NCBI GenBank assembly: GCA_964353135.1
Contig: CAYGTV010000001.1
Span: 87,138 to 151,137 of the forward strand
DNA from: an uncultured Candidatus Saccharibacteria bacterium
GTDB taxonomy: Bacteria; Patescibacteriota; Minisyncoccia; Phycocordibacterales; UBA918
Direction: 5' to 3'
Length of the DNA: 64,000 nt
Positions 46,901 to 58,976 of this stretch are shown in pieces. A program made the translations under genes and the position numbers. A model generated the notes under the pieces. The model did not search any database and was not told the DNA's origin. It saw only the letters and a list, made by a program, of their open reading frames with translations. Within the stretch, counting starts at the first letter, position 1. Each line of letters starts with the position of its first letter.

Positions 46901-47256
46901 GGTACCGCGTGTTTGTTGACTTTTCTGGTGATTTAGTGAATTCCTATGGTGACACAATCGCCAGCTTGGCAAGCACCAACGCTGCCCCCGCTACCTGGGA
47001 GTCACAGTGTACCGGTGCCACTACTGGCTGCTTTGGGTATCATGCTGGAGACAATTCACTCTATGATGGTTCGGTCCGTTTTGCCGTTGACAACTCATAC
47101 GCTGGTATTGAACCTGGGTTAGTTGAGGTTATGTCGAGTAACATCCCCGTGACGTTTGACGTGAGCGACATCATATATAGGACTCGGGTAGGGTTCTTGC
47201 AACCAGCGGGTGAGTACAATACTACGGTACGTTATATAGTAGTGCCTATATTCTAA
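40909..47256 (+). CDS. giant secreted/surface protein with internal repeat domains
   Basis: 2115 aa with an N-terminal signal/TM (FCSFVLVFTLLSADLFVVL). It has recurring blocks (TQ.NYHWRNDDG.ETGA.SATGG.ENTP and YCFR.TDAG.PL..YTNYPE) and is Thr/Ser/Gly/Asn-rich with little Cys. Confidence 0.7.
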   Translation: MASLMGNNARSWLYKFCSFVLVFTLLSADLFVVLERGFFIASQAEAAVGDFSVFRETTGTEVIAGTGNNVSWDTSVAASANIALQANTSDIDLADGGKYLVLYNSWTHEGSTGGANRRSVASYVAVNGSASEYGWGGGYIRDAENDFNAYNSGAAILDVTAGDDITVVLDRDDSNPGGGTAIRGGTNGVSILKLDDDLDYLRVHSSAGVSDISSNTSFNVVDWDTADEVDAGSFTFAAPASGVVVKGATDQKFLVTSNVKLNVTGGGGPRQNYEMRLTLDGVEVPGTRSTAYLRFDNGDVNSTLQYTGIIQKTSAADQTLAVEVRREGQAAATTAIVGDQTALAIAALPATAQVLSLTTTADESLTSAPSTMSFGSQLSTASSFLSHSTTTASDNIVVDTAGNYLVLATTYTSRISGNGRDVPRIDWRLDGSTQPYGGHGHYNRGDEGTEDTYTSGGSSGAIFPSLTSGQIIELAQSDETSGTPVSDFPAGRVAVQVVELSELIPQTSTDVSVNGSQVATLAPNTSNVNLGEQFVISENNGARNVTNITLSEDGTIAADTGLANIRLYYDLDTSAPYDCTSESYVGTENQFGATSTFSGADGSVSFTSSETISPTQSMCLYVVADVTASASDGQTVNVFIASPATDVVVTAGGTVSPVSSVGNSASTITDAEITQTNYHWRNDDGSETGATSATGGIENTPGLAFAAATPQRLRIGVAGEGTGTEVNSYRLEFAEKITTCDAATGWESVDTVGGAWDVFDSVNLIEGGNTTNIAEVDGGVSDGTGTFVTPNGGVRDATSQTAALSITADDFTELEYSIQATGAAIEGLAYCFRVTDAGSPLRAYTNYPEATLSADVTVAASGSYIASVVAGATDVYLGGQFIAVSNSGNHTLTEIILTEVGTLDAGQYLTNPRLYYEGDATNPRDCASESFDGLETIAAGTAFTDANGTTTFTVSSPVRTNESFCAYIVVDVADTAPDSETITFEISTPNTDLTIAGATIGPGSAVAPSGSVIVNAPSLTQGNYHWRNDDGTETGASSATGGVENTPMNGVLQESQRRLRLAVSNDGNADAVGTDLRLEYGTKVTTCENVGSWERVDTGVAFDMDVTSQLVQGNDTTDILEGDGGVNNPNTFLSPNSAQLETVDQLTLATLTNTQYIELEYALEITAASAFSATYCFRLTDAGVPLSTYTNYPELTIQDRQDFIVQRGTETVSGTGVTLTAGVDYVAPASNSAAFVRITNTSMTGAGSDTLGQTRVPEDVFAYIEGGDNLTTSFSIVRPPAATDNTRVSWEIVEYIGITGADNEFILRDAGTVTYGTSALFATGTPVVGIADDNDVVVFITGQYNPDGNVNNYNTGLSISSWDTTGDQPVFERGDADGVAARVSYAVVEFTGASWAVQRAQHTFTAAGVAETESITAVNSLLRTFVHAQKISGDELFNLDESGHEVWLSSIGAVSFQLENGATNPGQQTSVAWVVENTQIGDGSMMVYRSNGLIAQGGVQPITTVLGIGGTIRPSNASLWATNRSTGGGSAHPRALLGATILNETQYELWKSDEGQNQNFRVEIVEWPVAETSIRQAVYRLYADNDALTPTDPWPAGANDLGENTPMTDIDEPLGEGEQTRIRMSLFINNATLISDSTSFKLQYGRRVTTCSAVSTWDDVGPSGSGSVWRAVDATPVGGTELLGGASLLLSVSDVAGTYEENSPSAVNPNTVDIGEYVEYDWIVENNAAIQKSSYCFRMTESDGAVLDGYDVYPTVRTSGYTPVIENWRWYDDEGSLTPTVALAGENVAPSALQNGSEVKLRVSVTEVEGAPGENVKFNLQYSEYPDFRVASTVNATTSCDGNDLWCYVDGAGNDNQTLDATVLSGVDSCAAGVGNGCGTHNEAEGISGLYDQPAFSISEHEFTLRHDGARVNTVYYFRLFDATNGVPLFASTSFPSVTTEGAVLTFTVSGIDAGQTTEGIITDATTTASGVNFGSLTMDTDTEAAQRLTVFANGTQGYRVFVDFSGDLVNSYGDTIASLASTNAAPATWESQCTGATTGCFGYHAGDNSLYDGSVRFAVDNSYAGIEPGLVEVMSSNIPVTFDVSDIIYRTRVGFLQPAGEYNTTVRYIVVPIF

Positions 47257-47439: not shown

Positions 47440-47511
47440 TCCGACGTAGCTCAGCGGTAGAGCAGTTGACTGTTAATCAATTGGCCGCAGGTTCGAATCC
47501 TGCCGTCGGAG
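47440..47511 (+). tRNA. tRNA-Asn (anticodon GUU), no encoded CCA
   Basis: The cloverleaf was folded by hand. Acceptor TCCGACG/CGTCGGA, D-arm GCTC-AGCGGTA-GAGC, anticodon arm GTTGA-CTGTTAA-TCAAT, T-arm GCAGG-TTCGAAT-CCTGC and discriminator G. Confidence 0.85.
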
Positions 47512-47547
47512 CTTTTGTAAAGAATAGTTAAGAAAAGTCTAGTTTAG

Positions 47548-48003
47548 ATGCTAGGTTTTTCTTGTATACTGGTAAATATGGAAATTAGAAACTACAATCC
47601 AGAAACTGATTATCCAGGCATTGAAGCCCTTTTGAGTGCCGAGGGTACTTTTGGTGGTCAGTTTGATGAAGCTAGAGATACTAAAGAGCGAATCGATGCT
47701 TTAGAAAGTACCAAACCAGGTAGTGTTCTAGTAGCAGAAGAGGATGGAGAGATCCTGGGCACAGTGACGCTTTTTGAAGATGGTCGATCTGCTTGGCTCT
47801 ATAGGTTTGCAGTCCAGCAAGACAATGAGACTGAAATAACAAAGCTTCTCAATGAAAAAGCTCTTCAGACAATGAAAGATCGTGGACATACTCAAGTTTT
47901 AGTTTACGCTCCCACTGGCGATCGACACTTTGAAGACCGATACACTTCACTTGGTTTTAATAAAGGAGGTGATTACACTGCCTACTGGCAAGATATTGTA
48001 TGA
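47548..48003 (+). CDS. GNAT-family N-acetyltransferase
   Basis: Acetyl-CoA-binding core of a GNAT (ILGTVTL...AWLYRFAVQQD...). The protein is ~140 aa if started at the ATG at 47578. Confidence 0.55.
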   Translation: MLGFSCILVNMEIRNYNPETDYPGIEALLSAEGTFGGQFDEARDTKERIDALESTKPGSVLVAEEDGEILGTVTLFEDGRSAWLYRFAVQQDNETEITKLLNEKALQTMKDRGHTQVLVYAPTGDRHFEDRYTSLGFNKGGDYTAYWQDIV

Positions 48004-48139
48004 AATCAGAAAAATTAATCTGCAATAGTTCGAATATTACCTATGACAAGGGTTACATAGCTCTTTGGTGTAAAGAATATGATCTACCAGACACTGTAGA
48101 AATTGATGGTGATACACTGCTTAAGAAAGACCATTTAGT

Positions 48140-48802
48140 ATGACAGTAGATTCTGCCATAAAAACCGTCTGGGACTATATGCATATGAATCATCAGCTCA
48201 AGAAAGCTGATACAATTATGGCTTTGGGTAGCTACGATATTCGGGTAGCAGAACACGCTGCAAAGCTATGGCTGGATGGATGGGCACCGTATCTTGTGTG
48301 TGCAGGATCAGGAACTGTACATAGCAATTCAGCGGTCTGGCAGGGGTTTGTAGGTTCTACGGAAGCAGAAATTTTTGCAGATGTGGCTCGTAAAGCTGGT
48401 GTCCCAGATGATGTGATACTGATTGAAAATAAATCACAAAATACTGGTCAAAATTATGAGTTTACATTGAACCTGCTTAATGAGAAAAACTTAGATGTAA
48501 AAAGTATTATCGCAGTACAGAAACCTTTTATGGAACGACGTACGTATGCGACAGGTAAGGTCTGGCTGCCTGAAGATATTGAATTAATTGTAACTTCGCC
48601 AAATCTGTCCTTAGACGAATATCCTAACGAAATCATAAGTCAGAATAATCATTGGATACACAATATGATCGGAGATCTGCAGAGGGTGAAAGAATACCCA
48701 GCTAAAGGCTTCCAAATTCATCAAGATATTCCAGATGAAGTTTGGGAAGCGTTCGAATTTCTAGTCAAAGAAGGATATTCTGATAATTTGCTTAAAGATT
48801 AA
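48140..48802 (+). CDS. DUF218 (YdcF/ElyC-like) domain protein
   Basis: Pattern ...ADTIMALGS...LVCAGSG...VILIENKSQNTGQN... typical of DUF218. Confidence 0.55.
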   Translation: MTVDSAIKTVWDYMHMNHQLKKADTIMALGSYDIRVAEHAAKLWLDGWAPYLVCAGSGTVHSNSAVWQGFVGSTEAEIFADVARKAGVPDDVILIENKSQNTGQNYEFTLNLLNEKNLDVKSIIAVQKPFMERRTYATGKVWLPEDIELIVTSPNLSLDEYPNEIISQNNHWIHNMIGDLQRVKEYPAKGFQIHQDIPDEVWEAFEFLVKEGYSDNLLKD

Positions 48803-48804
48803 CT

Positions 48805-49458
48805 ATGACACCAGATAACAATGCATTAGAACGAACATATTTTATAGGTGGACCACCTAGAGTTGGTAAAACTACTTTGGCTTATAAACTGGCTGAGGAT
48901 ATAAGGGGGCACGTTGCAATGACAGATGCAATCCGCAATTCAGCTAAAAAAGTATGTGAAGACAAGGCAGGTCCGTTGTTTATGATCAATCACTACAATG
49001 AATTCAGTGAAGAGAAATGGCTGAACCGCTTTGCGAATAACCCTGATCAGGTTGTCAAAGATCAAATTAACGAATCGAAAGCCATTTGGCGTTCTGTTGT
49101 TTCGTTCTGCAATATGTTCTGTGAGGATAATGCCAATCATATTGTTGAAGGGGTAGCAGTTATGCCTGAACTAGTAGCCTCAATGGACAATAAGCCTGAT
49201 CACGTAGTTTTTGTTGGTAATACTAGCGAGCACCACGTTGAAACAATGTTGCAGTATGGAAAAGATAATCCTGAACAATGCTGGATGGCGTATCTGGGGT
49301 ACAGTGAGGACCGAATCAGAGCTTTTGCAAATTACGTTTTGCATATGAGTCAACATTTCAAAGATGAAGCTGATAAATATGGCTTTAGCTATGTGGAGCT
49401 TTCAGATGATAATTTCGAGCAATCGCTCCAAGAAGCGATTAACTCGCTAAAGAAGTAG
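48805..49458 (+). CDS. P-loop NTPase/kinase (AAA_33-like)
   Basis: Walker A IGGPPRVGKTTLA and a Walker B-like HIVEGVAV. Translationally coupled to the upstream gene. Confidence 0.55.
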   Translation: MTPDNNALERTYFIGGPPRVGKTTLAYKLAEDIRGHVAMTDAIRNSAKKVCEDKAGPLFMINHYNEFSEEKWLNRFANNPDQVVKDQINESKAIWRSVVSFCNMFCEDNANHIVEGVAVMPELVASMDNKPDHVVFVGNTSEHHVETMLQYGKDNPEQCWMAYLGYSEDRIRAFANYVLHMSQHFKDEADKYGFSYVELSDDNFEQSLQEAINSLKK

Positions 49459-49583
49459 GAGCGAGTATTTGTATATCAGACTCAATTGAACGCCAATTGA
49501 TTGTTCGAAAAGCTTCCAACTGGCAGAGCCTTTGTAAAGAAAAGTGAAGTAACACCCTGATGCTCCTTTAAAACTAGAGGGTT

Positions 49584-50369
49584 TTGTGCTTCAATTTATC
49601 GATGATTATTGATATTGGGTCAGGTCACCAACCACATCCTCAGGCAGATGTGCTGCTAGATATTCATGATGAGCATGGTTCTCATAGGTGGTCCAAAAAA
49701 TTACAATCTGACCGACCTACAGTCATCTACGAGGGGAAAACTTTTCCGTTTATTGATAATGCTTTTTTGTACTCTGTCTGTAAGCATGTACTGGAGCATG
49801 TAGATGACCCGGCACACTTTCTTAATGAGATCAGTAGGATTTCTACTGCAGGTTACATTGAAACACCATCAGAATTATCAGAATTGATATTTACACCTTA
49901 TGCACTGCACAAGTGGGTGGTTCACAAAAAGGGTGAGGTGCTCATTATAAAAAACAAAATTAATGCGAATGTTTCCAAATGTGGCAAGTTGTTTGACTAT
50001 CTCTGCGATAATGAACCCGGTTTTGATGAGTATTTCTACTTGAGCAGAAGACGTCTTTTTCTCACAGAATATTGGTGGACGGAAGCAGTATTGTTTGAAC
50101 TTGTTGAAGAAAATGACTCTACTTTTGAGAACTATAATGACGAACAAACACTTCTCAATATATCAGAAAGAAACAATGTTGATTATCAAATCGAAATACC
50201 TCCAGAGCACTTGAGTCAAAAACCCTCTGATATATTCCAAGAATTATCTAGGGTGCTCTGCTCACCGTGCTGCTCGAATAAGGTTGAGTATAAGGAAGAA
50301 TCATATCAATGCATCAAATGTGGTCATGTATACAAAAAAGACGGGAACCAGATCTTGTTTATTCAGTAG
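49584..50369 (+). CDS. class I SAM-dependent methyltransferase with a C-terminal zinc ribbon
   Basis: Motif I IIDIGSGHQP and a post-I acidic motif VLEHVDDP. C-terminal CSPCC...CIKCGH. The ORF-track start is a TTG at 49584; the ATG at 49602 is an alternative. Confidence 0.55.
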   Translation: MCFNLSMIIDIGSGHQPHPQADVLLDIHDEHGSHRWSKKLQSDRPTVIYEGKTFPFIDNAFLYSVCKHVLEHVDDPAHFLNEISRISTAGYIETPSELSELIFTPYALHKWVVHKKGEVLIIKNKINANVSKCGKLFDYLCDNEPGFDEYFYLSRRRLFLTEYWWTEAVLFELVEENDSTFENYNDEQTLLNISERNNVDYQIEIPPEHLSQKPSDIFQELSRVLCSPCCSNKVEYKEESYQCIKCGHVYKKDGNQILFIQ

Positions 50370-52614
50370 CCACTTTCAGTTGTTTGATGAATTTCTCAGC
50401 AACACTATCAATGTATTGAAAAATTTCTGTAAATGAACTCGATTCAGTGTGCGGGTTCCCAAGAGTAACACCCAACACCCTAAAACGATCTCTTTTGTCT
50501 GTGAGAAGCCTTTTGACATCAAAAATGTCAAAAGTGTGAATACAGATTATACCGTCTTGGTAAATTTCATCATGAATCATCTTGTTCAAGTCACTAATCA
50601 CTTTTGATTTCTCAGTAGAGCCAAGATCAATTTTATGCGTTGACACTGAAAACACCACGCTGTTTAACTCAACTTCGTTAAGTGTGCAAAAATATTTCGA
50701 TGTCTCTACTGACTTGTGCCAGCTCTTTGCGAGCTCATAACGATAGTCGACTAACTCACCAATACCCTTAGTTCCTAAATGCTTTATGAAAAACCAAAGT
50801 TTTAGACTGTCGAATGGTCGACTTCCCATAAACGGGGTTATTTGACCAAGATCGAACGAATCTTTTTTTATTGTGATATCTGTTGATTTGCTGAATAGAT
50901 CTGTATTTTCTATATCCTTAAATAAAACTGCACTAGCAGAATACGGTATACACAGGCCCTTGTGTGGATCAATTGAGATTGAATCTGCTCTTTCTATGCC
51001 TTTTATGCGCTCTCTGTGATTGTTGGAAAATATAAGTACCCCGCCATGACATGCGTCCACGTGGAGCCAAACTCTTTTTGTCTCGCAGATATCAGCTATT
51101 TTGTTAAAGTCCTCTATGGTTGTTGTTCTCGAATCACCAGCTTGGCTAACAACAGCGACAACTTTAGAGGTGACTCCGTTATCATACTGATTAATTTTTT
51201 CAACCAAGTCATCACAATCGATTCTATAGTCTTCGGAATTATTTACGTACACTATGTTGTCCTCTCCCATACCAAGCCACCAAAATGACGCAATATGCGA
51301 GTAGTGATAGAAGGTCTCAGATGCGACAATCAATATCGGCTTCAACTTGCTAGCGTTCAGGCCACTTTTACGAGAATCAGGAAAACTTTTGCACCTAGCT
51401 GCTAACAAAGCTGTTGCATTAGCTAGAGTACCGCCGGTCGTCATGATACCTCCAGCTTCTTGAGCTCTTTTTGGGAAACCACTTTTTACATCGTAGCCAA
51501 TGAGTTCCCGCAACCACTTTATAACTTGAATTTCTGCGAAGGTTGCCGAGGGACCACTTTTAGTTGTTGCAATTAAATTTTGATTAGTAAAATTTTCTAG
51601 TATTGAGGCAGATAGTGCTGCGATTGAATTCCCGGCATCTGGGAAAGCAAGATAGTTTGGATGAGCTTGGTGTATAGATGAACTGTAAATTTTATTGGTG
51701 TATTCTTTAAGAATTATACCCATTTCCTTACCTAATTCAGGAGCTGGTTCGTCAAAACCTCCGATCAACTCCTCCTCGGTTTTGTAATCGATTACTTTTT
51801 CTGGGTTTACAATAAACTCTACACCCATCTCAAGAGCTCTATAAAGAGCTTCAGTGCTTGATTGTGTAGTAGTTTTTCCTAAAAATTTATTTTTTATGTC
51901 AAAGATGCGCTTTGAGGTCAGTTCAGGCAGCTCCAAAAACGCCTTTGTTCTATCAATAAAAAGCCAATTTTCTTCAACAGATAAAATTCTTTTTGAAACT
52001 AGTTGATTGGTTACAGTGCCGAAAATATTTTCGATATAATTACTAGTTTCTTTTGAGTTTACAAATCCTAGCGACTCTTTGCCGCTGTTTAGAAGTAGGT
52101 TTATAATTTTTTCTTTTGTAAATTGATCGCTATTAGTAGACAAAAGTAGAAGAAGAACTACCGTTGAGAAAGCTTGAACTCGATCGAGTTCAAATTCCTT
52201 CATATCTCCAATTAACATCTGATTTGGTCCGGCCAATGCGCACAACCATTGTCTGTATTGATTAAAGCCCGACCAATCTAATGGACCTATTTGATCTACG
52301 ATTACCGAATCGTCCGTCTTTATATGGCCATATCCTCGTATAGATTTCTGCAACTCAAGCCAAGAAATGTATTCTCCTGCATATTGGAGATCTGGTACTA
52401 GCCCGTTTTCGTTATGATACTTCACAAACCACTTTTTAAATGAAGTCACTTCCTGCAGCGGTGCACTTTTGTGAAAAACACACATTAAATCAATATCGCT
52501 ATCCTTTCGCTGTTCTTTTCTTGCTCTCGAGCCAAATACTAGACAGTATTTTAAACTATCAGAAAAATGTTTCTCTGCTGCAACCTTTAAATCGTTTAAA
52601 ATTTTATCTGTCAT
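50359..52614 (-). CDS. fusion of a minimal nucleotidyltransferase (Pol-beta superfamily) with a PLP-dependent group II decarboxylase
   Basis: N-terminus ...YCLVFGSRARKEQRKDSDIDLMCVF has the GS...DxD NTase motif, followed by a helical region. The C-terminal ~480 aa has the PLP-Lys motif SISIDPHKGLCIPYSASAVLF (S-x-x-x-HK, typical of group II decarboxylases). Confidence 0.6.
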   Translation of the reverse strand: MTDKILNDLKVAAEKHFSDSLKYCLVFGSRARKEQRKDSDIDLMCVFHKSAPLQEVTSFKKWFVKYHNENGLVPDLQYAGEYISWLELQKSIRGYGHIKTDDSVIVDQIGPLDWSGFNQYRQWLCALAGPNQMLIGDMKEFELDRVQAFSTVVLLLLLSTNSDQFTKEKIINLLLNSGKESLGFVNSKETSNYIENIFGTVTNQLVSKRILSVEENWLFIDRTKAFLELPELTSKRIFDIKNKFLGKTTTQSSTEALYRALEMGVEFIVNPEKVIDYKTEEELIGGFDEPAPELGKEMGIILKEYTNKIYSSSIHQAHPNYLAFPDAGNSIAALSASILENFTNQNLIATTKSGPSATFAEIQVIKWLRELIGYDVKSGFPKRAQEAGGIMTTGGTLANATALLAARCKSFPDSRKSGLNASKLKPILIVASETFYHYSHIASFWWLGMGEDNIVYVNNSEDYRIDCDDLVEKINQYDNGVTSKVVAVVSQAGDSRTTTIEDFNKIADICETKRVWLHVDACHGGVLIFSNNHRERIKGIERADSISIDPHKGLCIPYSASAVLFKDIENTDLFSKSTDITIKKDSFDLGQITPFMGSRPFDSLKLWFFIKHLGTKGIGELVDYRYELAKSWHKSVETSKYFCTLNEVELNSVVFSVSTHKIDLGSTEKSKVISDLNKMIHDEIYQDGIICIHTFDIFDVKRLLTDKRDRFRVLGVTLGNPHTESSSFTEIFQYIDSVAEKFIKQLKVATE

Positions 52615-52616
52615 AT

Positions 52617-53447
52617 TTAACGAGTTAAAATATACTGATCCTGTGAGCTGAGATTCAGGTCATGAATCACTGAAAAATCTGTTTTAGTAAAACCGTCATA
52701 AGAATGCGCATCTGAACCGAAGACGAACTTACCGCCATATTTTAAGTATTCAATAAGAAAAGCCTGGTCGTTCGTTTTTAGCTGGCCAGTCTCGTACATA
52801 TTGTATTTCCACTGGTCATAAGAAGGATATTTTTTTCCATTGATTTCAAAATAAATATTATGGCCTGACTCCCATTCCGACTTAAATAAGTTAAGGATGT
52901 AGTGGATCTCCTCAGTGTTAAAGTTTTCAGAGAAATGTCCATGGATGGCTTGAAAGGGGTGTGCAAAAATATCAATACTTTTATTTTGGATAAGTGCCTT
53001 AATATTTTCCATCAAAAAACTTCGCTTTGATGCATTGTCATTATTGGTCCTTGAATACTCCTCTTGAAAACTTTCTGAATGAATTGCTCCAAGTAATATA
53101 TCGACACCAAATTTATCACTTTCTTTTCCGGTGATGCCTTGGGCTAATCTGAGAGATCCATCAATATTCACTTCAACTTCTAGTCCTGAGAATATATCAA
53201 TTTTATTTTTGTATCTATCTCTAAGACTGTTAATTTGGTTGAGATACTCTGAAAAAACCTCGTCGTCATCAAAAAAGACAGATTCTGTTCCGTCGGCGTT
53301 AAACCAGCCGCATGCATGATCTGTGATTATTATTGACTTAATTCTTAGCTGAATGGCTTGGGTGACCATTTCCTCTAGAGAGTTTTTACCGTCAGAAAAT
53401 TTACTATGTATCTGAACATCCTGCCTCTTTAGAAAGTCGTTTAACAT
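52617..53447 (-). CDS. PHP-domain phosphoesterase (HisK/CpsB-like)
   Basis: N-terminal IHSKFSDG...IIITDH metal-binding motifs of the PHP family. Confidence 0.6.
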   Translation of the reverse strand: MLNDFLKRQDVQIHSKFSDGKNSLEEMVTQAIQLRIKSIIITDHACGWFNADGTESVFFDDDEVFSEYLNQINSLRDRYKNKIDIFSGLEVEVNIDGSLRLAQGITGKESDKFGVDILLGAIHSESFQEEYSRTNNDNASKRSFLMENIKALIQNKSIDIFAHPFQAIHGHFSENFNTEEIHYILNLFKSEWESGHNIYFEINGKKYPSYDQWKYNMYETGQLKTNDQAFLIEYLKYGGKFVFGSDAHSYDGFTKTDFSVIHDLNLSSQDQYILTR

Positions 53448-53523
53448 ATAGATAATTTACCTTAATACAGTATTTAAACAAGAAACTTCAGCAAGTAGTT
53501 CTGAAATAGACTCCCAGTTTAAT

Positions 53524-53638
53524 GTTCGAAACTCATCCAGCTGAGAGAGCGAGCAGAAAAACCCTTATTTATAAGGGTTTTTCTTATGCTCGCGACGACG
53601 GAAGAACAATCTGGGAGATTGTTCTGTCAGGATTCGAA
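53524..53638 (+). repeat. repeat module copy 0 (degenerate)
   Basis: GTTCGAAACTCATCCAGCTGAGAGAGCGAGCA box, an AAAAACCCTTA-ttta-TAAGGGTTTTT terminator hairpin, a second hairpin GAACAATC-tggga-GATTGTTC, then GATTCGAA. Confidence 0.45.
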
Positions 53639-53704
53639 AAGCTTTTGAGGTAGATTCGACCAGAGGAAGAATATATCCAAAAGGTATACTGGTCATGTAA
53701 TGAC

Positions 53705-53726
53705 CGAAATTCCTGCCGTCGGAGCA
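53705..53726 (+). repeat. direct repeat of the tRNA-Asn 3' end (putative att-site copy)
   Basis: CGAAATTCCTGCCGTCGGAGCA versus the tRNA 3' end CGAATCCTGCCGTCGGAGCT. There is a 15/15 exact core and 19 of 21 positions matching with a 1-2 nt indel. Confidence 0.6.
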
Positions 53727-53796
53727 GACAAAAATACTCTTGTTTTGCAGGGGTATTTTTAGTTTAGATTCATACCCCGAAGACGACGGTTCGAAC
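53705..53796 (+). repeat. repeat module copy A
   Basis: Box (the tRNA-3'-like DR), an AAAAATACTCTTG-tttt-CAGGGGTATTTTT hairpin, then GGTTCGAAC at 53788. Confidence 0.5.
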
Positions 53797-53816
53797 TTTT
53801 GGTATGATTAGAATAT

Positions 53817-54353
53817 ATGAAAAAAGTCGTCGTCGGATCTAACAACCCTGTAAAACTCAAAACAACAAAAGAAGCATTTACTTTACGATTTCCAGAGGAA
53901 ACTTTTGAATACATTACTTTTTCCGCGCCATCAGGTGTCTCAGATCAACCCATGAGTTCAGAGGAAACTAAGAAAGGCGCTTTAAATCGTGCTTTGGCTT
54001 GCAAGCAGGAATATCCAGACGCTGATTATTATATTGGACTAGAGGGCGGTATTGAAGCGATAGAGGGGCAGTATTGGGTATCTGCTTGGATGTGTATAGT
54101 CGATGGAAACAAAAAACAAGGATTTGGAAGAACTAGTGCCTTTTTACTTCCTAGTCGGGTGTGTAAATTGATTGATCAAGGTGAAGAACTTGGTACCGCC
54201 ACTGACATTGCTTTTAATGAAGTTAATTCAAAACATAAAGGAGGTGCTGTAAGCGCTTTAACAGATGAACTTGTGACCCGAAAAGATTTTTATAGAGATG
54301 CTATTATTTTTGCCCTCATACCTTTCTGTAAAACAGAGTTATATAGCCAGTGA
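53817..54353 (+). CDS. YjjX-family non-canonical NTP pyrophosphatase (inosine/xanthosine triphosphatase-like)
   Basis: N-terminus KVVVGSNNPVKL and ...YYIGLEGGIE...WMCIVDG... match the NTPase_I-T family pattern. Confidence 0.55.
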   Translation: MKKVVVGSNNPVKLKTTKEAFTLRFPEETFEYITFSAPSGVSDQPMSSEETKKGALNRALACKQEYPDADYYIGLEGGIEAIEGQYWVSAWMCIVDGNKKQGFGRTSAFLLPSRVCKLIDQGEELGTATDIAFNEVNSKHKGGAVSALTDELVTRKDFYRDAIIFALIPFCKTELYSQ

Positions 54354-54362
54354 GTCGTTTTT

Positions 54363-54470
54363 CTATACAAAAGTTCGAACATCCTCCACCCAGCGGAGCA
54401 GTTAAAAATAACCTTATTTTATAGGGTTATTTTTTATTTAAATCTATACCCTTGAGGGCAATGTTCGAAC
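54363..54470 (+). repeat. repeat module copy B
   Basis: CTATACAAAAGTTCGAACATCCTCCACCCAGCGGAGCA box, an AAAAATAACCTTA-ttt-TAGGGTTATTTTTT hairpin, then GTTCGAAC at 54463. Confidence 0.55.
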
Positions 54471-54620
54471 TTCTAGTACGCGTGCCACAGATATGATGGT
54501 GAATTAATACCATATTCATTGAAAAAGAAATAAATCTGTGTCATTGTGCAGTCAGACAATCCTGTCTAAAACTGGCGGAATGCTAGTTCTTTCACATCTT
54601 ACGGAATGTAGGAGATACCA

Positions 54621-55619
54621 ATGAAACCGACGGCACAGAAGAACCAAAAACTTATTGCTCAATATCCATTTCTTAAAGAAATGATTACAGCACCATTCGA
54701 ACCCATTTCACCCGGTGTTTTTGAAAAAGATACAGTCTCTGACCTGACTATCAAATTCGAACGGGCGGATGCTCATCTGATGTACCGACATGGCAAAAAT
54801 ACAGGACTAGAGAGCCGTAATGGTTCATGCAGCTGGTCTATGCCGATGGAAGGTCCTCGCAAGGGTCAGGCTGGTAAACGTGGACATCTATTGTTCGCCG
54901 TCGACCACTCCGGTAAAGTCATCAACGAGCTTGATTGGCAGGAAGAAAAGCCGAAAGAACCTATCTTTGGCTATCATGCGCTTTGGGGCAAGAAGCTTGG
55001 ACCAGACCATTTCACTGAATGTCTTTATGACCAAGTGAAGTATCTTGTTTGGGTAACTGTTGAAGCTTGGCACGAGTTCATCAAAGGTTTTGAGGATACG
55101 CCATTTGGCGACTTCATTGACCGTACGATGACTGTAACCATCTACTCAGCCCCAGAGCAAGGGTTCAGCAAACTGAGTGACGAAGCGAACGTCTACGACC
55201 ATCTATGGCTGGATGATGACGTCATGATGCGTGGCTCAATGCGTAATGACCATGACATCTTGCGTATCAATGGAATGTTGACCGAGCTTTGTCACCAATT
55301 CAAGACCGACGTATACGACAATGGCATGCGAGACGTGGCAGACTCTCATCCGAAGCATCGTATTGCCGCTAGCGGTCAGTTTGGCCCTGTCGAGGTGCTG
55401 GTTGCTGAAATGTGTGGCTATGAACGTATCCAACTGGATACCGACACGTGTCGTATCACATTTCAAATTAGACCTGACGCAACTAAAGCATACGTTCTTG
55501 CTATGCAAGGTCGTTTGCCACAGCTACGTGAAATAGTTCGAACAGTCATTGAATATTGGAACTACCGCGAAGGTGGTCGTTCTGACTTTTCCTACAATCA
55601 AGAAGTTTGCGTAGGATAA
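54621..55619 (+). CDS. hypothetical protein (332 aa)
   Basis: A long ORF with RBS GGAGATACCAATG and no recognised motif. Confidence 0.45.
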   Translation: MKPTAQKNQKLIAQYPFLKEMITAPFEPISPGVFEKDTVSDLTIKFERADAHLMYRHGKNTGLESRNGSCSWSMPMEGPRKGQAGKRGHLLFAVDHSGKVINELDWQEEKPKEPIFGYHALWGKKLGPDHFTECLYDQVKYLVWVTVEAWHEFIKGFEDTPFGDFIDRTMTVTIYSAPEQGFSKLSDEANVYDHLWLDDDVMMRGSMRNDHDILRINGMLTELCHQFKTDVYDNGMRDVADSHPKHRIAASGQFGPVEVLVAEMCGYERIQLDTDTCRITFQIRPDATKAYVLAMQGRLPQLREIVRTVIEYWNYREGGRSDFSYNQEVCVG

Positions 55620-55635
55620 TTAGTTCACTTTAAGT

Positions 55636-55672
55636 AGCCGCCTTCCCTAATTTGGGTGGGCGGCTTTTTCTT
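55636..55672 (+). terminator. intrinsic terminator
   Basis: AGCCGCC-loop-GGCGGCT followed by TTTTTCTTTTT. Confidence 0.5.
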
Positions 55673-55675
55673 TTT

Positions 55676-55770
55676 CATAAAAAGTTCGAACATCCTCCAC
55701 CCAGCGGAGCAAAGAAAATACCCTTGTTTTTCAGGGGTATTTTTTGTTACCCTCGGATAGGATTCGAACC
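55676..55770 (+). repeat. repeat module copy C
   Basis: CATAAAAAGTTCGAACATCCTCCACCCAGCGGAGCA box, an AAAATACCCTTG-ttttt-CAGGGGTATTTTTT hairpin, then GATTCGAACC. Confidence 0.55.
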
Positions 55771-55975
55771 GGGTAGATATTTACATAGTAGTAAGTATAG
55801 GTATACTGCACTTATTGGTCCTACCTGTAGGAAAAAGACAGTCTGTCATAATCGCTGTTGGGGATGCTTGAGAAAGCAAACTGACGGACTGTTTCAATGC
55901 TGGCAACCGAAACATTATAATCGAGTTTTGGTTAGTTTGGTCTCCAACAGCTGCTCATGTATAAGGAGATGTGCG

Positions 55976-56293
55976 ATGCCGCTAAATAAAGCTGGACGCA
56001 AAATCCTTAAGCGTCTTCGCCAAAAACACACAGGCAGGGGTTCGCGATTGCGTGCCGGAAGATATCAGTACCTTCTTTGTCCTTTTCATTATGAAGGAAC
56101 TGCATCTTGGTGCATAGACCTAAAAACAGGTCGGCACTATTGCTTTGGGTGTCACCAGCGTGGTGATATCTGGAATCTTGCAACGAACCAACCGGAGTTG
56201 TTAGGTCAACCCAAACCAAGAGATAGAAGAGAAGTACTGCCGCCACTTCCAATGGTTGATGGATTGCCTCACGATGATGATGTTCCTTTTTGA
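55976..56293 (+). CDS. small CHC2-type zinc-finger protein (primase-like zinc-binding domain only)
   Basis: LLCPFHYEGTASWCIDLKTGRHYCFGCHQRGDIWNL matches the DnaG-type CHC2 zinc finger (CPFH-x-E-x-T-x-S...CFGCG). AAGGAG lies 7 nt upstream of the ATG. The ORF-track ORF starting at 55652 reads through repeat module C and is rejected. Confidence 0.5.
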   Translation: MPLNKAGRKILKRLRQKHTGRGSRLRAGRYQYLLCPFHYEGTASWCIDLKTGRHYCFGCHQRGDIWNLATNQPELLGQPKPRDRREVLPPLPMVDGLPHDDDVPF

Positions 56294-56312
56294 GAGGTTT
56301 AAAACGTTGTTT

Positions 56313-56340
56313 CCGCCCAGCTTTGTTGGGCGGCTTTCTT
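56313..56340 (+). terminator. intrinsic terminator
   Basis: CCGCCCA-gctttgt-TGGGCGG followed by CTTTCTTTC. Confidence 0.5.
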
Positions 56341-56349
56341 TCATTTGGA

Positions 56350-56466
56350 TACTGAAAAGGTTCGAACATCCTCCACCCAGCGGAGCAGTAAAAATCCTTG
56401 AAAGGGGATTTTTCTTTTGCTCTGACGGAGAAAGTGACAGGAGTCACTTTCGTTGGGATTCGAAAT
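56350..56466 (+). repeat. repeat module copy D
   Basis: TACTGAAAAGGTTCGAACATCCTCCACCCAGCGGAGCA box, an AAAAATCCTTG-aaa-GGGGATTTTTC hairpin, a second hairpin AAAGTGAC-agga-GTCACTTT, then GATTCGAAAT. Confidence 0.55.
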
Positions 56467-56917: not shown

Positions 56918-56977
56918 ATCTGAATTTCCCCCGCCCAGTGGAGCAAGACATAAAAACACCCGCCGGGTGTTTTTATG
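56918..56977 (+). repeat. repeat module copy E (degenerate, lacks the GTTCGAAC head)
   Basis: GATCTGAATTTCCCCCGCCCAGTGGAGCA box, then an AAAAACACCCG-c-CGGGTGTTTTT terminator. Confidence 0.4.
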
Positions 56978-57034
56978 TGTGCAACTGTTTTGAGTCTTTG
57001 GTATACAGGCTACAATAAGGCTAAGGAGCACAGT

Positions 57035-58868: not shown

Positions 58869-58976
58869 TTGTTCGTGAAAGAAACAAAGAAGTCGTGCGT
58901 CATAGAGGGCGGGAGGAATTGATGTTTGGAGGAACGTCTTGTCCTGAAATGTACAAAACAAAAATGGAAGAGAAGA

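What the first reader, a model, noticed from the sequence alone, without database searches (positions are those of the whole stretch)
50359..52614. Unusual single-polypeptide fusion of a minimal nucleotidyltransferase and a PLP-dependent group II decarboxylase
The N-terminal ~250 aa carries the Pol-beta-type NTase motif (FGSRARKEQRKDSDIDL) plus a helical domain, an architecture like kanamycin/aminoglycoside nucleotidyltransferases. The C-terminal ~480 aa has the S-x-x-x-H-K PLP-lysine motif (SIDPHKG) and the fold pattern of aromatic-amino-acid/glutamate-type decarboxylases. I am not aware of a characterised enzyme with this fusion. It suggests coupled decarboxylation and nucleotidylation (adenylylation) of an amino-acid-derived small molecule, or a decarboxylase regulated by an NTase/sensor module. 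Its island neighbours (PHP phosphoesterase, methyltransferase, kinase, GNAT) are all small-molecule-modifying enzymes.
Basis: partly seen in the sequence, partly recalled or inferred. Interest (0 to 1): 0.65.

Follow-up and report, generated by a model that had tools for sequence, protein, structure and literature searches.

The report
Two-enzyme fusion tied to tRNA synthetases
This is a real, conserved fusion of a nucleotide-transferring enzyme and a vitamin-B6 "decarboxylase-like" enzyme, found mainly in tiny-genome CPR bacteria and usually encoded beside a tRNA-charging enzyme; it probably makes a still-unknown nucleotide-tagged derivative of arginine.

Summary
The ORF at 50359-52614 (-) is real: 751 aa, intact, with a Pol-beta NTase core (aa ~1-85), an undescribed helical domain (aa ~86-280) and a group II PLP domain (aa ~281-751). 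It belongs to a small conserved family (~28 clusters, 39-54% identity). NTase and PLP-binding residues are invariant, but the catalytic large-loop Tyr of true decarboxylases is an invariant Ile (I580).

The window itself is from a CPR (Paceibacteria-like) genome. The gene lies in a 6.2-kb low-GC island beside tRNA-Asn, abutting a HisJ-like PHP phosphoesterase gene and convergent with a SAM methyltransferase gene. Both partners recur in relatives; the kinase, DUF218 and GNAT genes do not.

In about 20 related loci argS is adjacent. A VioC/GntD-like arginine-type hydroxylase replaces PHP in two loci. The same DC-like clade pairs with the NTase module as an N-terminal fusion, a C-terminal fusion or separate genes. 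The module is also fused or adjacent to MetRS, to an alpha-oxoamine synthase beside LysRS, and to an ALDH-GNAT. It also occurs in a Bacillus cereus plasmid biosynthetic cluster.

Best reading (confidence ~0.45): a bifunctional enzyme of a small-molecule pathway that converts arginine or a close analogue into a nucleotidylated amine. No publication describing it was found. Function is inferred from context only.

The parts
50359..52614 (-). Fusion ORF, 751 aa: NTase module + DC-like PLP domain
   Evidence: ORF; Pfam; family alignment with invariant catalytic residues; confident AF2 model.
52360..52614 (-). Pol-beta/MNT-type nucleotidyltransferase core (aa ~1-85). Carries G28-S29, D40-x-D42 and D75/E81.
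   Evidence: Polbeta and NTP_transf_2 score above Pfam cutoffs. A PDB profile search hits MNT/KNTase/HalB. The residues are invariant.
51775..52359 (-). Helical domain with a beta-hairpin (aa ~86-280). Together with the NTase core it forms a ~240-aa module. It has no Pfam family.
   Evidence: AF2 model pLDDT 88.7. Foldseek finds two-domain NTases Tam41, ANT(9), AadA and ANT(4') at TM 0.26-0.42. A profile search finds 215 representatives at E<=1e-10 that cover both halves, mostly standalone 215-290 aa proteins. The standalone members carry no Pfam annotation beyond Polbeta.
50362..51774 (-). Group II PLP 'decarboxylase-like' domain (aa ~281-751). PLP Lys K552, D520 and H437 are present. The signature AGDSRT lies at 492-497. 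The large-loop Tyr is replaced by I580.
   Evidence: Pyridoxal_deC 172 bits. Nearest structures are DABA decarboxylase, CSAD and GAD. I580 aligns with Y333 of the Sphaerobacter decarboxylase, the residue mutated in 4RIZ and 4RJ0. The clade hallmarks are shared with reverse-order, split and plasmid relatives.
52617..53447 (-). PHP-family phosphoesterase (276 aa), HisJ-like. Its stop codon lies 2 nt before the fusion's ATG. Conserved partner.
   Evidence: PHP Pfam 57 bits. hisJ_fam scores 59 bits, below its cutoff of 90. Its only PDB sequence hit is L-histidinol phosphate phosphatase 4GC3. It lies directly upstream of the fusion in 19 loci. Metal-ligand motifs are conserved, with QxH in place of HxH. 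The gene junction is shown.
49602..50369 (+). SAM-dependent methyltransferase (255 aa from ATG 49602) with a C-terminal CxxC...CxxC zinc ribbon. It is convergent with the fusion gene and overlaps its 3' end by 11 nt. Recurrent partner.
   Evidence: Methyltransf_11. Homologues in the same convergent position occur in L036, L038 and L039. It is distantly related to the 216-aa methyltransferase of seven other loci.
47440..47512 (+). tRNA-Asn(GTT), left boundary of the low-GC island
   Evidence: ARAGORN; Rfam; GC falls from ~46-50% to ~38% here.
53705..53725 (+). Direct repeat of the tRNA-Asn 3' end (cgaaAttcctgccgtcggagc), an attR-like right boundary. The island spans ~47513-53725 and contains no integrase.
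   Evidence: Read directly; repeat family D1.
49503..49552 (+). Degenerate copy of the tRNA-3'-end junction. It splits the island into cassette A (GNAT, DUF218, kinase) and cassette B (methyltransferase, fusion, PHP).
   Evidence: Repeat D3, 38 nt at 76% identity to the tRNA junction; sequence.
47548..49458 (+). Cassette A: GNAT (47548-48003), DUF218 (48140-48802) and a P-loop 2-phosphoglycerate-kinase-like protein (48805-49458). These are not conserved partners of the fusion.
   Evidence: Pfam/NCBIfam. None has a homologue in any of ~30 related loci.

Best explanation
The ORF encodes a genuine bifunctional enzyme. It belongs to a small, mostly CPR-restricted biosynthetic module whose core is the PHP phosphoesterase plus this fusion, here joined by a SAM methyltransferase.

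Proposed steps (all inferred, none assayed). The C-terminal group II PLP domain binds an alpha-amino acid, most likely L-arginine or a hydroxylated or otherwise close guanidino analogue, and removes or replaces its carboxyl carbon. Because the usual C-alpha proton donor is missing, the outcome is probably not a simple amine. It could be a decarboxylative condensation, a transamination, or an aldehyde-forming variant. The N-terminal ANT/Tam41-like NTase module then transfers an NMP from an NTP onto a hydroxyl, amine or phosphate of that product. The HisJ-like PHP enzyme hydrolyses a phosphoester of the intermediate. The methyltransferase tailors it; in relatives, GT2, sulfotransferase or arginine-type hydroxylases do so.

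The product would be a nucleotide-linked, carboxyl-modified amino-acid derivative. The recurrent pairing with the cognate aaRS gene suggests the product or pathway is functionally tied to that synthetase, for example as an aminoacyl-adenylate-like ligand.

What is shown: the domain identities, the conserved catalytic residues, the missing Tyr, the conserved partners, and the gene-context statistics. What is inferred: substrate, reaction order, product and role.
For: 1. Both active sites look functional. G28-S29, D40-x-D42, D75/E81, H437, D520 and K552 are invariant in 21 sequences at 39-54% identity.

2. The NTase module and this DC-like clade are partnered in three architectures. These are the N-terminal fusion, the C-terminal fusion in P0234/P0271/P0296, and adjacent separate genes in L008 and L015. 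All carry the clade hallmarks AG[DN][SC]RT and no loop Tyr.

3. The partners are tailoring enzymes typical of small-molecule pathways. PHP lies directly upstream in 19 loci, GT2 downstream in 13, methyltransferases in 11 and sulfotransferase in 7. There is an ABC exporter in L005 and an EamA transporter in L008.

4. In Bacillus cereus plasmid pRML02, a clade member and a 244-aa NTase-module homologue (E=9e-8) lie in one cluster. That cluster also holds an ACP, an adenylate-forming enzyme, a BtrH-like transferase, an aminotransferase, an acetyltransferase, an NT5C nucleotidase and an ABC transporter.

5. Several pointers favour arginine. argS lies within 0-3 genes in 19 loci, in varying positions and orientations and with three ArgRS types. 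ArgRS genes found without the module have unrelated neighbours. A dioxygenase that best matches GntD (E=5e-39) and VioC arginine beta-hydroxylase (E=1e-29) replaces PHP in L013 and L046. D588 in the large loop is invariant in the ArgRS-linked subfamily and is S/A/F in the MetRS-linked one.

6. The aaRS link generalises. A reverse-order fusion lies next to MetRS. The module is fused directly to MetRS. A module-alpha-oxoamine-synthase fusion sits in a cluster with LysRS, an SDR and a methyltransferase.

7. The nearest folds of the module, ANT enzymes and Tam41, nucleotidylate small-molecule hydroxyl or phosphate groups.
Against: There are no biochemical data for any family member. Plain decarboxylation of arginine gives agmatine, which has no hydroxyl for an ANT-like O-nucleotidylation, so an extra or different reaction has to be assumed. 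The window's own locus has no argS within 64 kb. The linked ArgRS belongs to the ordinary, widespread CPR type, so adjacency could reflect co-regulation rather than chemistry. The module fuses to many unrelated enzymes, a pattern also typical of regulatory domains. The fold matches of the module are weak (TM 0.26-0.42). The substrate pocket could not be inspected because no model coordinates were available.
Confidence: 0.45

Rival explanations
1. Amino-acid supply or clearance for the neighbouring synthetase. The PLP domain makes the cognate amino acid, for example by decarboxylation-dependent transamination of its keto acid, or destroys a near-cognate analogue that ArgRS would mischarge. This feeds or protects the aaRS. 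The NTase plays an accessory or unknown role.
For: There is a direct precedent in another minimal genome. Mycoplasma penetrans MetRS is an NTase-like NTD - PLP aminotransferase - MetRS fusion, and its PLP domain makes Met from KMTB (PMC13215547). The aaRS adjacency or fusion is seen for Arg, Met and Lys. Loss of the C-alpha proton-donor Tyr is the kind of change that diverts group II decarboxylases to other half-reactions (bioRxiv 10.1101/404970).
Against: It does not explain the conserved PHP, GT2, sulfotransferase, methyltransferase and hydroxylase partners. It also does not explain the aaRS-free Bacillus and Roseibium biosynthetic clusters. No decarboxylation is known that yields arginine. 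The family is rare (~30 clusters), which is unexpected for a generally useful salvage function. The M. penetrans NTD has a different, Rossmann-type NTase fold.
Confidence: 0.2
2. Regulatory nucleotidylation. The NTase module AMPylates or UMPylates its fused PLP enzyme, or the adjacent aaRS, and the PHP phosphoesterase reverses this. The pair would form a GlnE/MntA-like covalent switch on amino-acid metabolism.
For: The module is promiscuously fused to unrelated enzymes: DC-like, aminotransferase/AOS, ALDH, MetRS and GTP cyclohydrolase II. That pattern is typical of regulatory domains. Its closest sequence relatives are MNT/MntA-type protein-AMPylating NTases. An NTase paired with a phosphoesterase (PHP in CPR, NT5C in Bacillus) would suit a write/erase pair.
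Against: A switch does not need the recurrent GT2, methyltransferase, sulfotransferase or hydroxylase genes. No HEPN partner is present, and the MntA model scores 26 bits against a cutoff of 60. The extra helical domain resembles the substrate-binding domains of small-molecule NTases.
Confidence: 0.12
3. An ordinary basic-amino-acid decarboxylase, producing agmatine or another polyamine, that happens to carry a vestigial or merely structural NTase domain.
For: The strongest family-level hits are real decarboxylases: PanP, DABA decarboxylase, CSAD/GAD and lysine decarboxylase DfoJ. The PLP-binding residues are intact.
Against: The catalytic large-loop Tyr is replaced by invariant Ile. The NTase catalytic residues are invariant over 39-54% identity and are maintained even when the NTase is a separate gene, which argues against decay. 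Scores lie far below every decarboxylase equivalog cutoff, 172 against 606 and 154 against 900.
Confidence: 0.08
4. tRNA-directed function. The NTase module acts on a tRNA, either at the 3' end or by activating a base, and the PLP domain supplies an amine such as agmatine for a tRNA modification. This would explain the aaRS linkage.
For: The module is fused to MetRS and adjacent to ArgRS and LysRS. Pol-beta NTases include tRNA-acting enzymes (general knowledge). A winged-helix-like hairpin is present in the model.
Against: The module's pI ranges from 4.7 to 9.0 and is mostly acidic to neutral, not what a dedicated RNA binder would show. tRNA genes are not consistently adjacent. The glycosyl-, sulfo- and methyltransferase partners and the ACP-containing Bacillus cluster do not fit tRNA modification. 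The family is too rare for a decoding function.
Confidence: 0.07
5. An artefactual fusion: a frameshift, misassembly or read-through has joined two separate genes.
For: None found. In distant relatives the two halves are separate genes.
Against: About 28 independent clusters of the same length and layout come from many samples. Two independent assemblies agree at 100%. There is a continuous, confidently modelled linker region.
Confidence: 0.01

Closest known systems
Group II (Pyridoxal_deC, PF00282) PLP-dependent decarboxylases. Nearest are L-2,4-diaminobutyrate decarboxylase, the Sphaerobacter thermophilus decarboxylase (4RIT), CSAD/GADL1/GAD65-67 and lysine decarboxylase DfoJ.
   Same: Same fold and Pfam family (172 bits). 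PLP-Lys in DPHK, Asp to the pyridine N (HVDAxHGG) and the stacking small-loop His are all present. TM ~0.7 to the target structures.
   Different: The large-loop catalytic Tyr (Y333 in 4RIT) is an invariant Ile. There is a two-residue insertion giving AGDSRT where relatives have AGTT. Extra invariant residues Y438 and H440 are present. Scores lie far below all NCBIfam equivalog cutoffs. The clade always partners with an NTase module.
Two-domain Pol-beta NTases that act on small molecules: aminoglycoside NTases ANT(4')/KNTase, ANT(9) and AadA, and the CDP-DAG synthase Tam41. Also the MNT/MntA minimal NTases.
   Same: hG[GS]...DxD catalytic core followed by a helical domain, about 240-280 aa in total. 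These are the top Foldseek and PDB-profile hits.
   Different: Sequence similarity is confined to the first ~80 aa. The helical half matches no Pfam family. TM is only 0.26-0.42. ANT family models score 12-15 bits against cutoffs of 340-500. No HEPN partner is present, unlike MntA.
NTase-PLP enzyme fusions: Treponema denticola PntC-AEPT (6PD1) and Mycoplasma penetrans MetRS (NTD-AGAT-MetRS; PMC13215547).
   Same: An NTase-type domain is fused N-terminal to a fold-type I PLP enzyme. In M. penetrans it is additionally joined to an aaRS in a minimal genome. The authors call that triple combination unique to date.
   Different: Those NTase domains are Rossmann/GT-A type (PntC/IspD-like), not Pol-beta. 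Their PLP domains are class V aminotransferases, not group II decarboxylase-like. This is analogy, not homology.
Pathways for aaRS-targeting natural products with self-immunity: microcin C (MccD/MccE/RimL), agrocin 84 and tiarins/trifolitoxin.
   Same: These are clusters in which an aaRS gene or a GNAT sits with enzymes that build an aminoacyl-adenylate-like or aaRS-binding molecule. Cluster-encoded ArgRS and N-acetyltransferases confer immunity in tiarins (bioRxiv 10.64898/2025.12.02.691738). Aminoalkyl adenylates and processed microcin C are non-hydrolysable aa-AMP mimics (PMC4695845). RimL-type GNATs occur fused or adjacent to the module.
   Different: No precursor peptide, MccB/ThiF-like enzyme or YcaO enzyme is present. 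The CPR ArgRS looks like the ordinary housekeeping type. No product is known, so the resemblance is one of gene-cluster logic only.
Carrier-protein-based amino-acid tailoring, as in the butirosin AHBA side chain (BtrH/BtrI/BtrJ/BtrK; recalled from general knowledge).
   Same: The B. cereus pRML02 cluster combines a BtrH_N-domain protein, an ACP, an adenylating enzyme and a PLP decarboxylase-like protein of this clade.
   Different: BtrK is recalled to belong to a different PLP fold. The CPR loci have no ACP or adenylating enzyme; an aaRS gene is the neighbour instead.

Membership tests
Pol-beta superfamily nucleotidyltransferase (MNT/NTP_transf_2 type) | hG[GS] motif followed by [DE]x[DE] metal-binding carboxylates | tested here: met
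   F27-G28-S29 and D40-I-D42 are invariant in 21 family members. Polbeta scores 29.6 and NTP_transf_2 30.1 bits, both above Pfam cutoffs.
Pol-beta superfamily nucleotidyltransferase (MNT/NTP_transf_2 type) | Third catalytic carboxylate on a later beta-strand | tested here: inconclusive
   D75 and E81 are both invariant, and E81 starts strand 81-84 in the model. Without coordinates I could not tell which of the two is the ligand.
Pol-beta superfamily nucleotidyltransferase (MNT/NTP_transf_2 type) | NTP-dependent nucleotidyl transfer activity | not testable with these tools
   Requires an enzyme assay.
Aminoglycoside nucleotidyltransferases (ANT(4')/KNTase, ANT(9), AadA) | Family-level sequence membership, including the C-terminal KNTase_C/DUF4111-type domain | tested here: not met
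   NCBIfam ANT_9 scores 14.5 bits (cutoff 340) and ANT_4p_I 12.6 bits (cutoff 350). No Pfam hit to a C-terminal ANT domain. Only a weak two-domain fold resemblance, TM 0.26-0.33.
Type VII toxin-antitoxin MntA antitoxin | A ~100-140 aa MNT protein paired with a HEPN (HepT) toxin gene | tested here: not met
   MntA model 26.4 bits against a cutoff of 60. No HEPN gene in the window or in ~30 related loci. The protein is 751 aa.
Group II PLP-dependent amino-acid decarboxylase (PF00282) | Fold and PLP-binding residues: Schiff-base Lys in (S/D)xHK, Asp to the pyridine N, stacking His | tested here: met
   Pyridoxal_deC 172 bits. K552, D520 and H437 are invariant and align to the corresponding residues of 8ZPI/4RIT. 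Foldseek TM ~0.7 to CSAD/GAD/DABA decarboxylase.
Group II PLP-dependent amino-acid decarboxylase (PF00282) | Large-loop catalytic Tyr that protonates C-alpha of the quinonoid intermediate (role described in bioRxiv 10.1101/404970) | tested here: not met
   It aligns to invariant I580 in S-T-D-I-T-I. The partner residue is Y333 of 4RIT, mutated in 4RIZ (Y333Q) and 4RJ0 (Y333N). No conserved Tyr occurs anywhere in the loop across N-terminal, C-terminal, split or plasmid members.
Specific decarboxylase equivalogs (PanP, DABA decarboxylase RhbB, MfnA, HDC) | Score at or above the curated NCBIfam equivalog cutoff | tested here: not met
   PanP 172.5 against 606; RhbB 154 against 900; MfnA 92 against 299; HDC 42 against 305.
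HisJ-family histidinol-phosphate phosphatase (for the PHP partner, 52617-53447) | PHP metal-ligand motifs and family-level score | tested here: inconclusive
   PHP Pfam 57 bits (met). hisJ_fam scores 59 bits, below its cutoff of 90. The only PDB sequence hit is histidinol phosphate phosphatase 4GC3, E=3e-5. Motifs DH, LExE, IHSES, HP..HG and SDAHS are conserved, but the first His of HxH is Gln.
Known or candidate anti-phage defence systems (PADLOC) | A match to a system-specific protein model together with its partner genes | tested here: not met
   Only generic MNT-domain hits to PDC-S09/PDC-M05A over aa 3-66. The neighbours have no hits.
aaRS-inhibitor biosynthetic cluster with a resistant aaRS copy (tiarin/agrocin-type logic) | A second, divergent aaRS copy in the cluster in addition to a housekeeping copy | not tested
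The linked ArgRS belongs to the widespread CPR type. The window locus has no argS.

The most novel reading that the evidence does not exclude
The ~240-aa NTase+helical module defines a previously undescribed class of aaRS-linked gene clusters, concentrated in CPR bacteria. In this class an amino acid cognate to the neighbouring synthetase (Arg, Met, Lys) has its carboxyl carbon reworked. The reworking enzyme is a Tyr-less decarboxylase-like enzyme, an alpha-oxoamine synthase plus ketoreductase, or a LuxC-type reductase. The product is then nucleotidylated to give an aminoalkyl-nucleotide, a natural non-hydrolysable mimic of the aminoacyl-adenylate. It would act as an aaRS inhibitor in inter-bacterial or symbiont-host conflict, or as a regulator of the producer's own synthetase. 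The adjacent aaRS and RimL-type GNATs would provide immunity.
Probability: 0.2. Interest if true: 0.9.

Novelty: new variant of a known kind. Interest (0 to 1): 0.68.

Why it matters
If the reading is right, this is an uncharacterised bifunctional enzyme type, a Pol-beta NTase joined to a Tyr-less group II PLP enzyme, whose chemistry is not predicted by either parent family. It is also one of the few candidate specialised-metabolite modules in CPR/Patescibacteria, organisms usually described as metabolically minimal. The repeated coupling to ArgRS, MetRS and LysRS genes gives a concrete, testable lead: does the product bind or inhibit the cognate synthetase? That could reveal a new natural class of aminoacyl-adenylate mimics, and it could explain the puzzling NTase-PLP-aaRS association recently seen in Mycoplasma penetrans MetRS. 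The DC-like clade itself, defined by AG[DN][SC]RT and the missing loop Tyr, is a clean target for discovering new PLP chemistry.

Tried and rejected
1. Defence-system reading. PADLOC gave only generic MNT hits, and there were no phage relatives of the module. Rejected.

2. Initial assumption that the host was a proteobacterium and the island came from CPR. This was wrong. The window's own GH15 amylase and V/A-ATPase subunit B cluster at >=90% identity with Paceibacteria/Nomurabacteria proteins.

3. The idea that the linked ArgRS is a rare, module-specific paralogue. It belongs to a clade with more than 120 clusters at >=55% identity across CPR, and linked and unlinked members are interspersed by identity. 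Not supported, though a second copy per genome was not tested.

4. argS adjacency as an integration-site effect. tRNA genes are not consistently nearby, and ArgRS loci without the module have unrelated neighbours. Rejected.

5. The kinase, DUF218 and GNAT genes as pathway members. They have no homologues in any related locus and lie in a separate sub-cassette. Set aside.

6. The substrate-pocket motif AFPD[SA]GN...LNQNL as a specificity determinant. It is conserved in all subfamilies, so it is uninformative.

7. An excised circular island. Contig L001 simply breaks at the repeats and has no terminal overlap.

8. Rfam on the tRNA-like repeats gave no hit.

10. Five literature searches found no description of this fusion or module.

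11. The recurrent 464-466 aa protein in L036 and L055 has only a marginal PurP/ATP-grasp hit, E=0.04. Unresolved.

Full report
**Observation.** The window holds an uninterrupted 751-aa ORF at 50359-52614 on the minus strand, exactly as reported. Both quoted motifs are present: FGSRARKEQRKDSDIDL at aa 27-43 and SIDPHKG at aa 547-553. Pfam places Polbeta (29.6 bits) and NTP_transf_2 (30.1 bits) at aa 19-76, both above their gathering cutoffs. It places Pyridoxal_deC at aa 285-657 with 172 bits. The fusion is not an artefact. About 28 protein clusters of 740-774 aa share the layout at 39-54% identity, and an independent assembly reproduces the locus at 100% identity. A 21-sequence alignment shows invariant NTase residues (G28-S29, D40-x-D42, D75, E81) and invariant PLP-site residues (H437, D520, H551-K552). 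AlphaFold models are confident: pLDDT 83.9 for the whole chain and 88.7 for the N-terminal 285 aa.

**Anatomy of the protein.**
- Residues ~1-85 form an MNT-type Pol-beta NTase core. A PDB profile search hits MNT proteins, kanamycin NTase and HalB, but only over this stretch.
- Residues ~86-280 form a helical domain with a beta-hairpin. It matches no Pfam family.
- Together the first ~240 aa form a two-domain module. Its nearest solved folds are Tam41 (a CTP:phosphatidate cytidylyltransferase), the ANT(9)/AadA/ANT(4') aminoglycoside NTases, MntA and HalB. Probabilities are high but TM-scores are only 0.26-0.42.
- The C-terminal ~470 aa is a group II PLP fold. It is closest to DABA decarboxylases, the Sphaerobacter decarboxylase 4RIT, CSAD/GADL1/GAD and lysine decarboxylase DfoJ.

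One defining catalytic residue is missing. The large-loop Tyr aligns with family-invariant I580 in the motif S-T-D-I-T-I. That Tyr is Y333 in 4RIT, and the 4RIZ and 4RJ0 entries are its Y333Q and Y333N mutants. In canonical enzymes this Tyr, helped by the small-loop His, protonates the C-alpha carbanion after CO2 loss. Losing it diverts the enzyme to other chemistry, such as aldehyde synthase activity (bioRxiv 10.1101/404970). The family also carries a signature AGDSRT where relatives have AGTT, and extra invariant residues Y438 and H440. The domain is therefore 'decarboxylase-like', and the reaction label should stay open.

**Host and island.** I first assumed a proteobacterial host, and this was wrong. 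The window's GH15 amylase and V/A-ATPase subunit B fall in 90%-identity clusters with proteins of Candidatus Paceibacteria and Nomurabacteria MAGs. The window is therefore CPR/Patescibacteria DNA.

The gene sits in a ~38% GC stretch within a 46-50% GC background. A tRNA-Asn gene at 47440-47512 marks the left edge. Its 3' end recurs at 53705-53725. This delimits a ~6.2-kb island with no integrase. A degenerate copy of the same junction at 49503-49552 splits the island in two:
- cassette A holds the GNAT, DUF218 and P-loop kinase genes;
- cassette B holds the methyltransferase, the fusion and the PHP gene.

In cassette B the PHP stop codon lies 2 nt before the fusion's ATG. The methyltransferase gene converges on the fusion's 3' end and overlaps it by 11 nt.

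**Conserved partners.** I compared about 30 related loci from genomes and metagenomes.

| Partner | Position relative to the fusion | Loci |
|---|---|---|
| PHP phosphoesterase | directly upstream | 19 |
| GT2 glycosyltransferase | directly downstream | 13 |
| 216-aa methyltransferase, with a sulfotransferase | downstream | 7 |
| Window-type methyltransferase with C-terminal zinc ribbon | convergent downstream, same position as in the window | 3 (L036, L038, L039) |

The last row is supported. The kinase, DUF218 and GNAT genes have no counterpart anywhere. The PHP protein is HisJ-like. Its only PDB sequence hit is L-histidinol phosphate phosphatase 4GC3. Its metal-ligand motifs are conserved except for QxH in place of HxH.

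**The aaRS link and the arginine pointers.** In 19 loci an arginyl-tRNA synthetase gene lies within 0-3 genes of the fusion. It may be directly downstream (L011, L013), after GT2 (L007, L044), after GT2, methyltransferase and sulfotransferase (L002, L010, L034, L037), upstream (L041, L045) or convergent (L008, L015). Three very different ArgRS types are involved, at 23-28% identity between types.

The commonest type is the ordinary, widespread CPR ArgRS, with more than 120 clusters at >=55% identity, so it is probably the housekeeping gene. As controls, two such ArgRS genes that lack the module have unrelated neighbours. A third, picked blind from a closed 692-kb Paceibacterota genome, again has the fusion-GT2 cluster beside it. 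tRNA genes do not explain the adjacency.

There is a second pointer to arginine. In L013 and L046 the upstream PHP is replaced by an Fe/2OG dioxygenase. It best matches GntD L-enduracididine beta-hydroxylase (E=5e-39) and VioC L-arginine beta-hydroxylase (E=1e-29). The window's own locus has no argS within 64 kb.

**A wider system.** A full-sensitivity profile search with the N-terminal module found 4,961 proteins at E<=1e-3 and 215 at E<=1e-10. Most of the listed top hits are standalone 215-290 aa proteins that cover both the NTase and helical halves. The module also occurs in other fusions:
- with MetRS (P0228, P0243);
- with Pyridoxal_deC in the reverse domain order (P0234, P0271, P0296);
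- with class I/II PLP enzymes (P0235, P0290);
- with GNAT plus aldehyde dehydrogenase (P0250, P0265);
- with GTP cyclohydrolase II (P0287).

The reverse-order and split decarboxylase-like proteins share the hallmarks of the window's domain, AG[DN][SC]RT and no loop Tyr. So one distinct PLP clade partners the NTase module in three gene architectures.

Three further contexts support the aaRS link. The reverse-order fusion P0271 is followed directly by MetRS. The NTase-MetRS fusion P0243 is followed by a GNAT with an Acetyltransf_3 Pfam domain; its best NCBIfam hits are other small N-acetyltransferases, whereas the GNAT fused in P0250 best matches RimL. The module-PLP fusion P0307 is an alpha-oxoamine synthase (BioF/Kbl/SPT-like, 377 bits). 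It sits in a same-strand cluster with LysRS (628 bits, above its cutoff), an SDR whose hits include 3-ketodihydrosphingosine reductase, and a methyltransferase.

The partnership also extends outside CPR. Two plasmid-borne proteins annotated as 'pyridoxal-dependent decarboxylase' carry the clade hallmarks. In Bacillus cereus pRML02 the cluster also contains a 244-aa homologue of the NTase module (E=9e-8), an ACP, an adenylate-forming enzyme, a BtrH_N protein, an aminotransferase, a CatA-like acetyltransferase, an NT5C nucleotidase and an ABC transporter. In Roseibium the neighbours are radical-SAM/SPASM enzymes, sugar dehydratase and epimerase genes, and a glycosyltransferase.

**Interpretation.** The best-supported reading is a small-molecule pathway enzyme. 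It rests on the following facts:
- both catalytic centres are under purifying selection;
- the pairing persists whether the two parts are fused or split;
- the partners are tailoring enzymes, with exporters in L005 and L008;
- in Bacillus the pair sits in an obvious biosynthetic cluster.

Arginine or a close guanidino analogue is the most likely substrate for the window's subfamily. The evidence is the argS linkage, the VioC/GntD-like hydroxylase, and an Asp (D588) in the substrate-covering loop that is invariant in the ArgRS-linked subfamily and absent in the MetRS-linked one.

I infer the following steps. The PLP domain reworks the carboxyl carbon. The ANT/Tam41-like module nucleotidylates the product. 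The HisJ-like PHP removes a phosphoester. The methyltransferase tailors the result. None of these steps has been demonstrated.

The more speculative and more novel extension is that these clusters make aminoalkyl-nucleotide mimics of the aminoacyl-adenylate of the neighbouring synthetase. Such compounds are classical aaRS inhibitors (PMC4695845). Cluster-encoded ArgRS and GNATs are known immunity devices for ArgRS-targeting tiarins and for microcin C (bioRxiv 10.64898/2025.12.02.691738). The alpha-oxoamine synthase + ketoreductase + NTase + LysRS cluster fits this logic best. The decarboxylase-like version fits less neatly, because plain decarboxylation leaves no hydroxyl to nucleotidylate.

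**Rivals.**
- Amino-acid supply or clearance for the aaRS. There is a real precedent in M. penetrans MetRS, an NTase-like NTD - PLP aminotransferase - MetRS fusion whose PLP domain makes Met (PMC13215547). This reading leaves the PHP, GT2, sulfotransferase, methyltransferase and hydroxylase partners and the aaRS-free Bacillus cluster unexplained.
- A regulatory AMPylation switch. It fits the module's promiscuous fusions and the NTase/phosphoesterase pairing, but not the tailoring genes.
- A plain decarboxylase with a dead NTase. The missing Tyr and the invariant NTase residues contradict it.
- A tRNA-directed role. The module's mostly acidic to neutral pI and the accessory genes argue against it.
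- A defence-system role. No support was found.

**Novelty.** Five literature searches found no description of this fusion, of the Tyr-less DC-like clade, or of the aaRS-linked NTase module. The M. penetrans paper calls its analogous NTase/PLP/aaRS combination unique to date. Both parent folds are well known, so I rate this a new variant of a known kind. There is a roughly one-in-five chance that it marks a new class of aaRS-directed metabolite pathways.

Noticed in passing
window 47440-56421: Downstream of tRNA-Asn lies a series of short repeats that resemble a tRNA 3' half (GTTCGAA...GGAGCA) followed by a terminator-like hairpin. They occur at 49503-49552, 53520-53585, 53695-53760, 54369-54434, 55680-55745 and 56356-56421. 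Each pair brackets one or two small genes, for example yjjX at 53817-54353, an unknown 332-aa ORF, and a CHC2 zinc-ribbon protein. This looks like serial accretion of small cassettes at one tRNA site with no integrase in view.
   Followed up: partly
window 40909-47256 (+): A 2115-aa ORF lies immediately upstream of the tRNA-Asn. Its GC is higher (~50%) than the rest of the window. It has no Pfam, PADLOC or PDB sequence match. It may be a giant CPR surface or unknown protein.
   Followed up: partly
window, whole (e.g. 20407-22374, 30293-31690): The window is CPR/Patescibacteria DNA. Its GH15 oligosaccharide amylase and V/A-type ATPase subunit B are >=90% identical to proteins of Candidatus Paceibacteria and Nomurabacteria MAGs.
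   Followed up: yes
window 56975-57535 and 58926-59537: Two paralogous ORFs of 186 and 203 aa, with no family hit, lie ~2 kb apart in the cassette region (cluster 22).
   Followed up: no
L059 7138-10369: In a CPR-type metagenome contig, a CBASS-like set lies a few genes from the DC-NTase/MetRS pair. It comprises a bacHORMA protein, a Trip13-like AAA ATPase and a Cap17-like_N + PNP_UDP_1 effector, with an NYN-domain gene in between.
   Followed up: no
L006 4626-7064 and 14311-17565: Upstream of the PHP-fusion pair are an APH/choline-kinase-like gene and a Peptidase_S66 gene. S66 is recalled to be the family of the microcin C immunity peptidase MccF. Downstream of argS are a restriction-modification pair and a serine recombinase. 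The S66 gene would fit an aminoacyl-nucleotide immunity role, but it occurs in only this one locus.
   Followed up: no
L036 8721-10115 and L055 4517-5917: A soluble 464-466 aa protein, 50% identical between the two loci, recurs between the fusion cluster and argS. It has no Pfam or NCBIfam hit and only a marginal PurP/ATP-grasp match at E=0.04.
   Followed up: partly
L061 (Bacillus cereus HN001 plasmid pRML02, record 102046-115042): An uncharacterised plasmid gene cluster in a food-poisoning isolate. It encodes a BtrH_N/DUF6005 protein, an NTase-module homologue, an aminotransferase, a CatA-like acetyltransferase, an NT5C nucleotidase, an ACP, the Tyr-less DC-like protein, an adenylate-forming enzyme and an ABC transporter, followed by an integrase. 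It is a tractable system in a cultured organism for finding the product.
   Followed up: partly
L015 7939-14019 and L005 13792-17097: A LysRS-like class IIb synthetase gene also lies next to the DC/NTase/ArgRS group in L015. A tRNA-synt_2 gene follows argS in L005. So two aaRS genes flank the module in some genomes.
   Followed up: partly
L016 9884-13897 and L017 8782-12809: In Amesbacteria-type MAGs a standalone DC-like gene (548-549 aa) is followed by a 438-444 aa protein with no Pfam hit. That protein resembles the unknown N-terminal ~500 aa of the 1026-aa L008 protein. A conserved 372-374 aa unknown gene is also present. No argS lies nearby.
   Followed up: no
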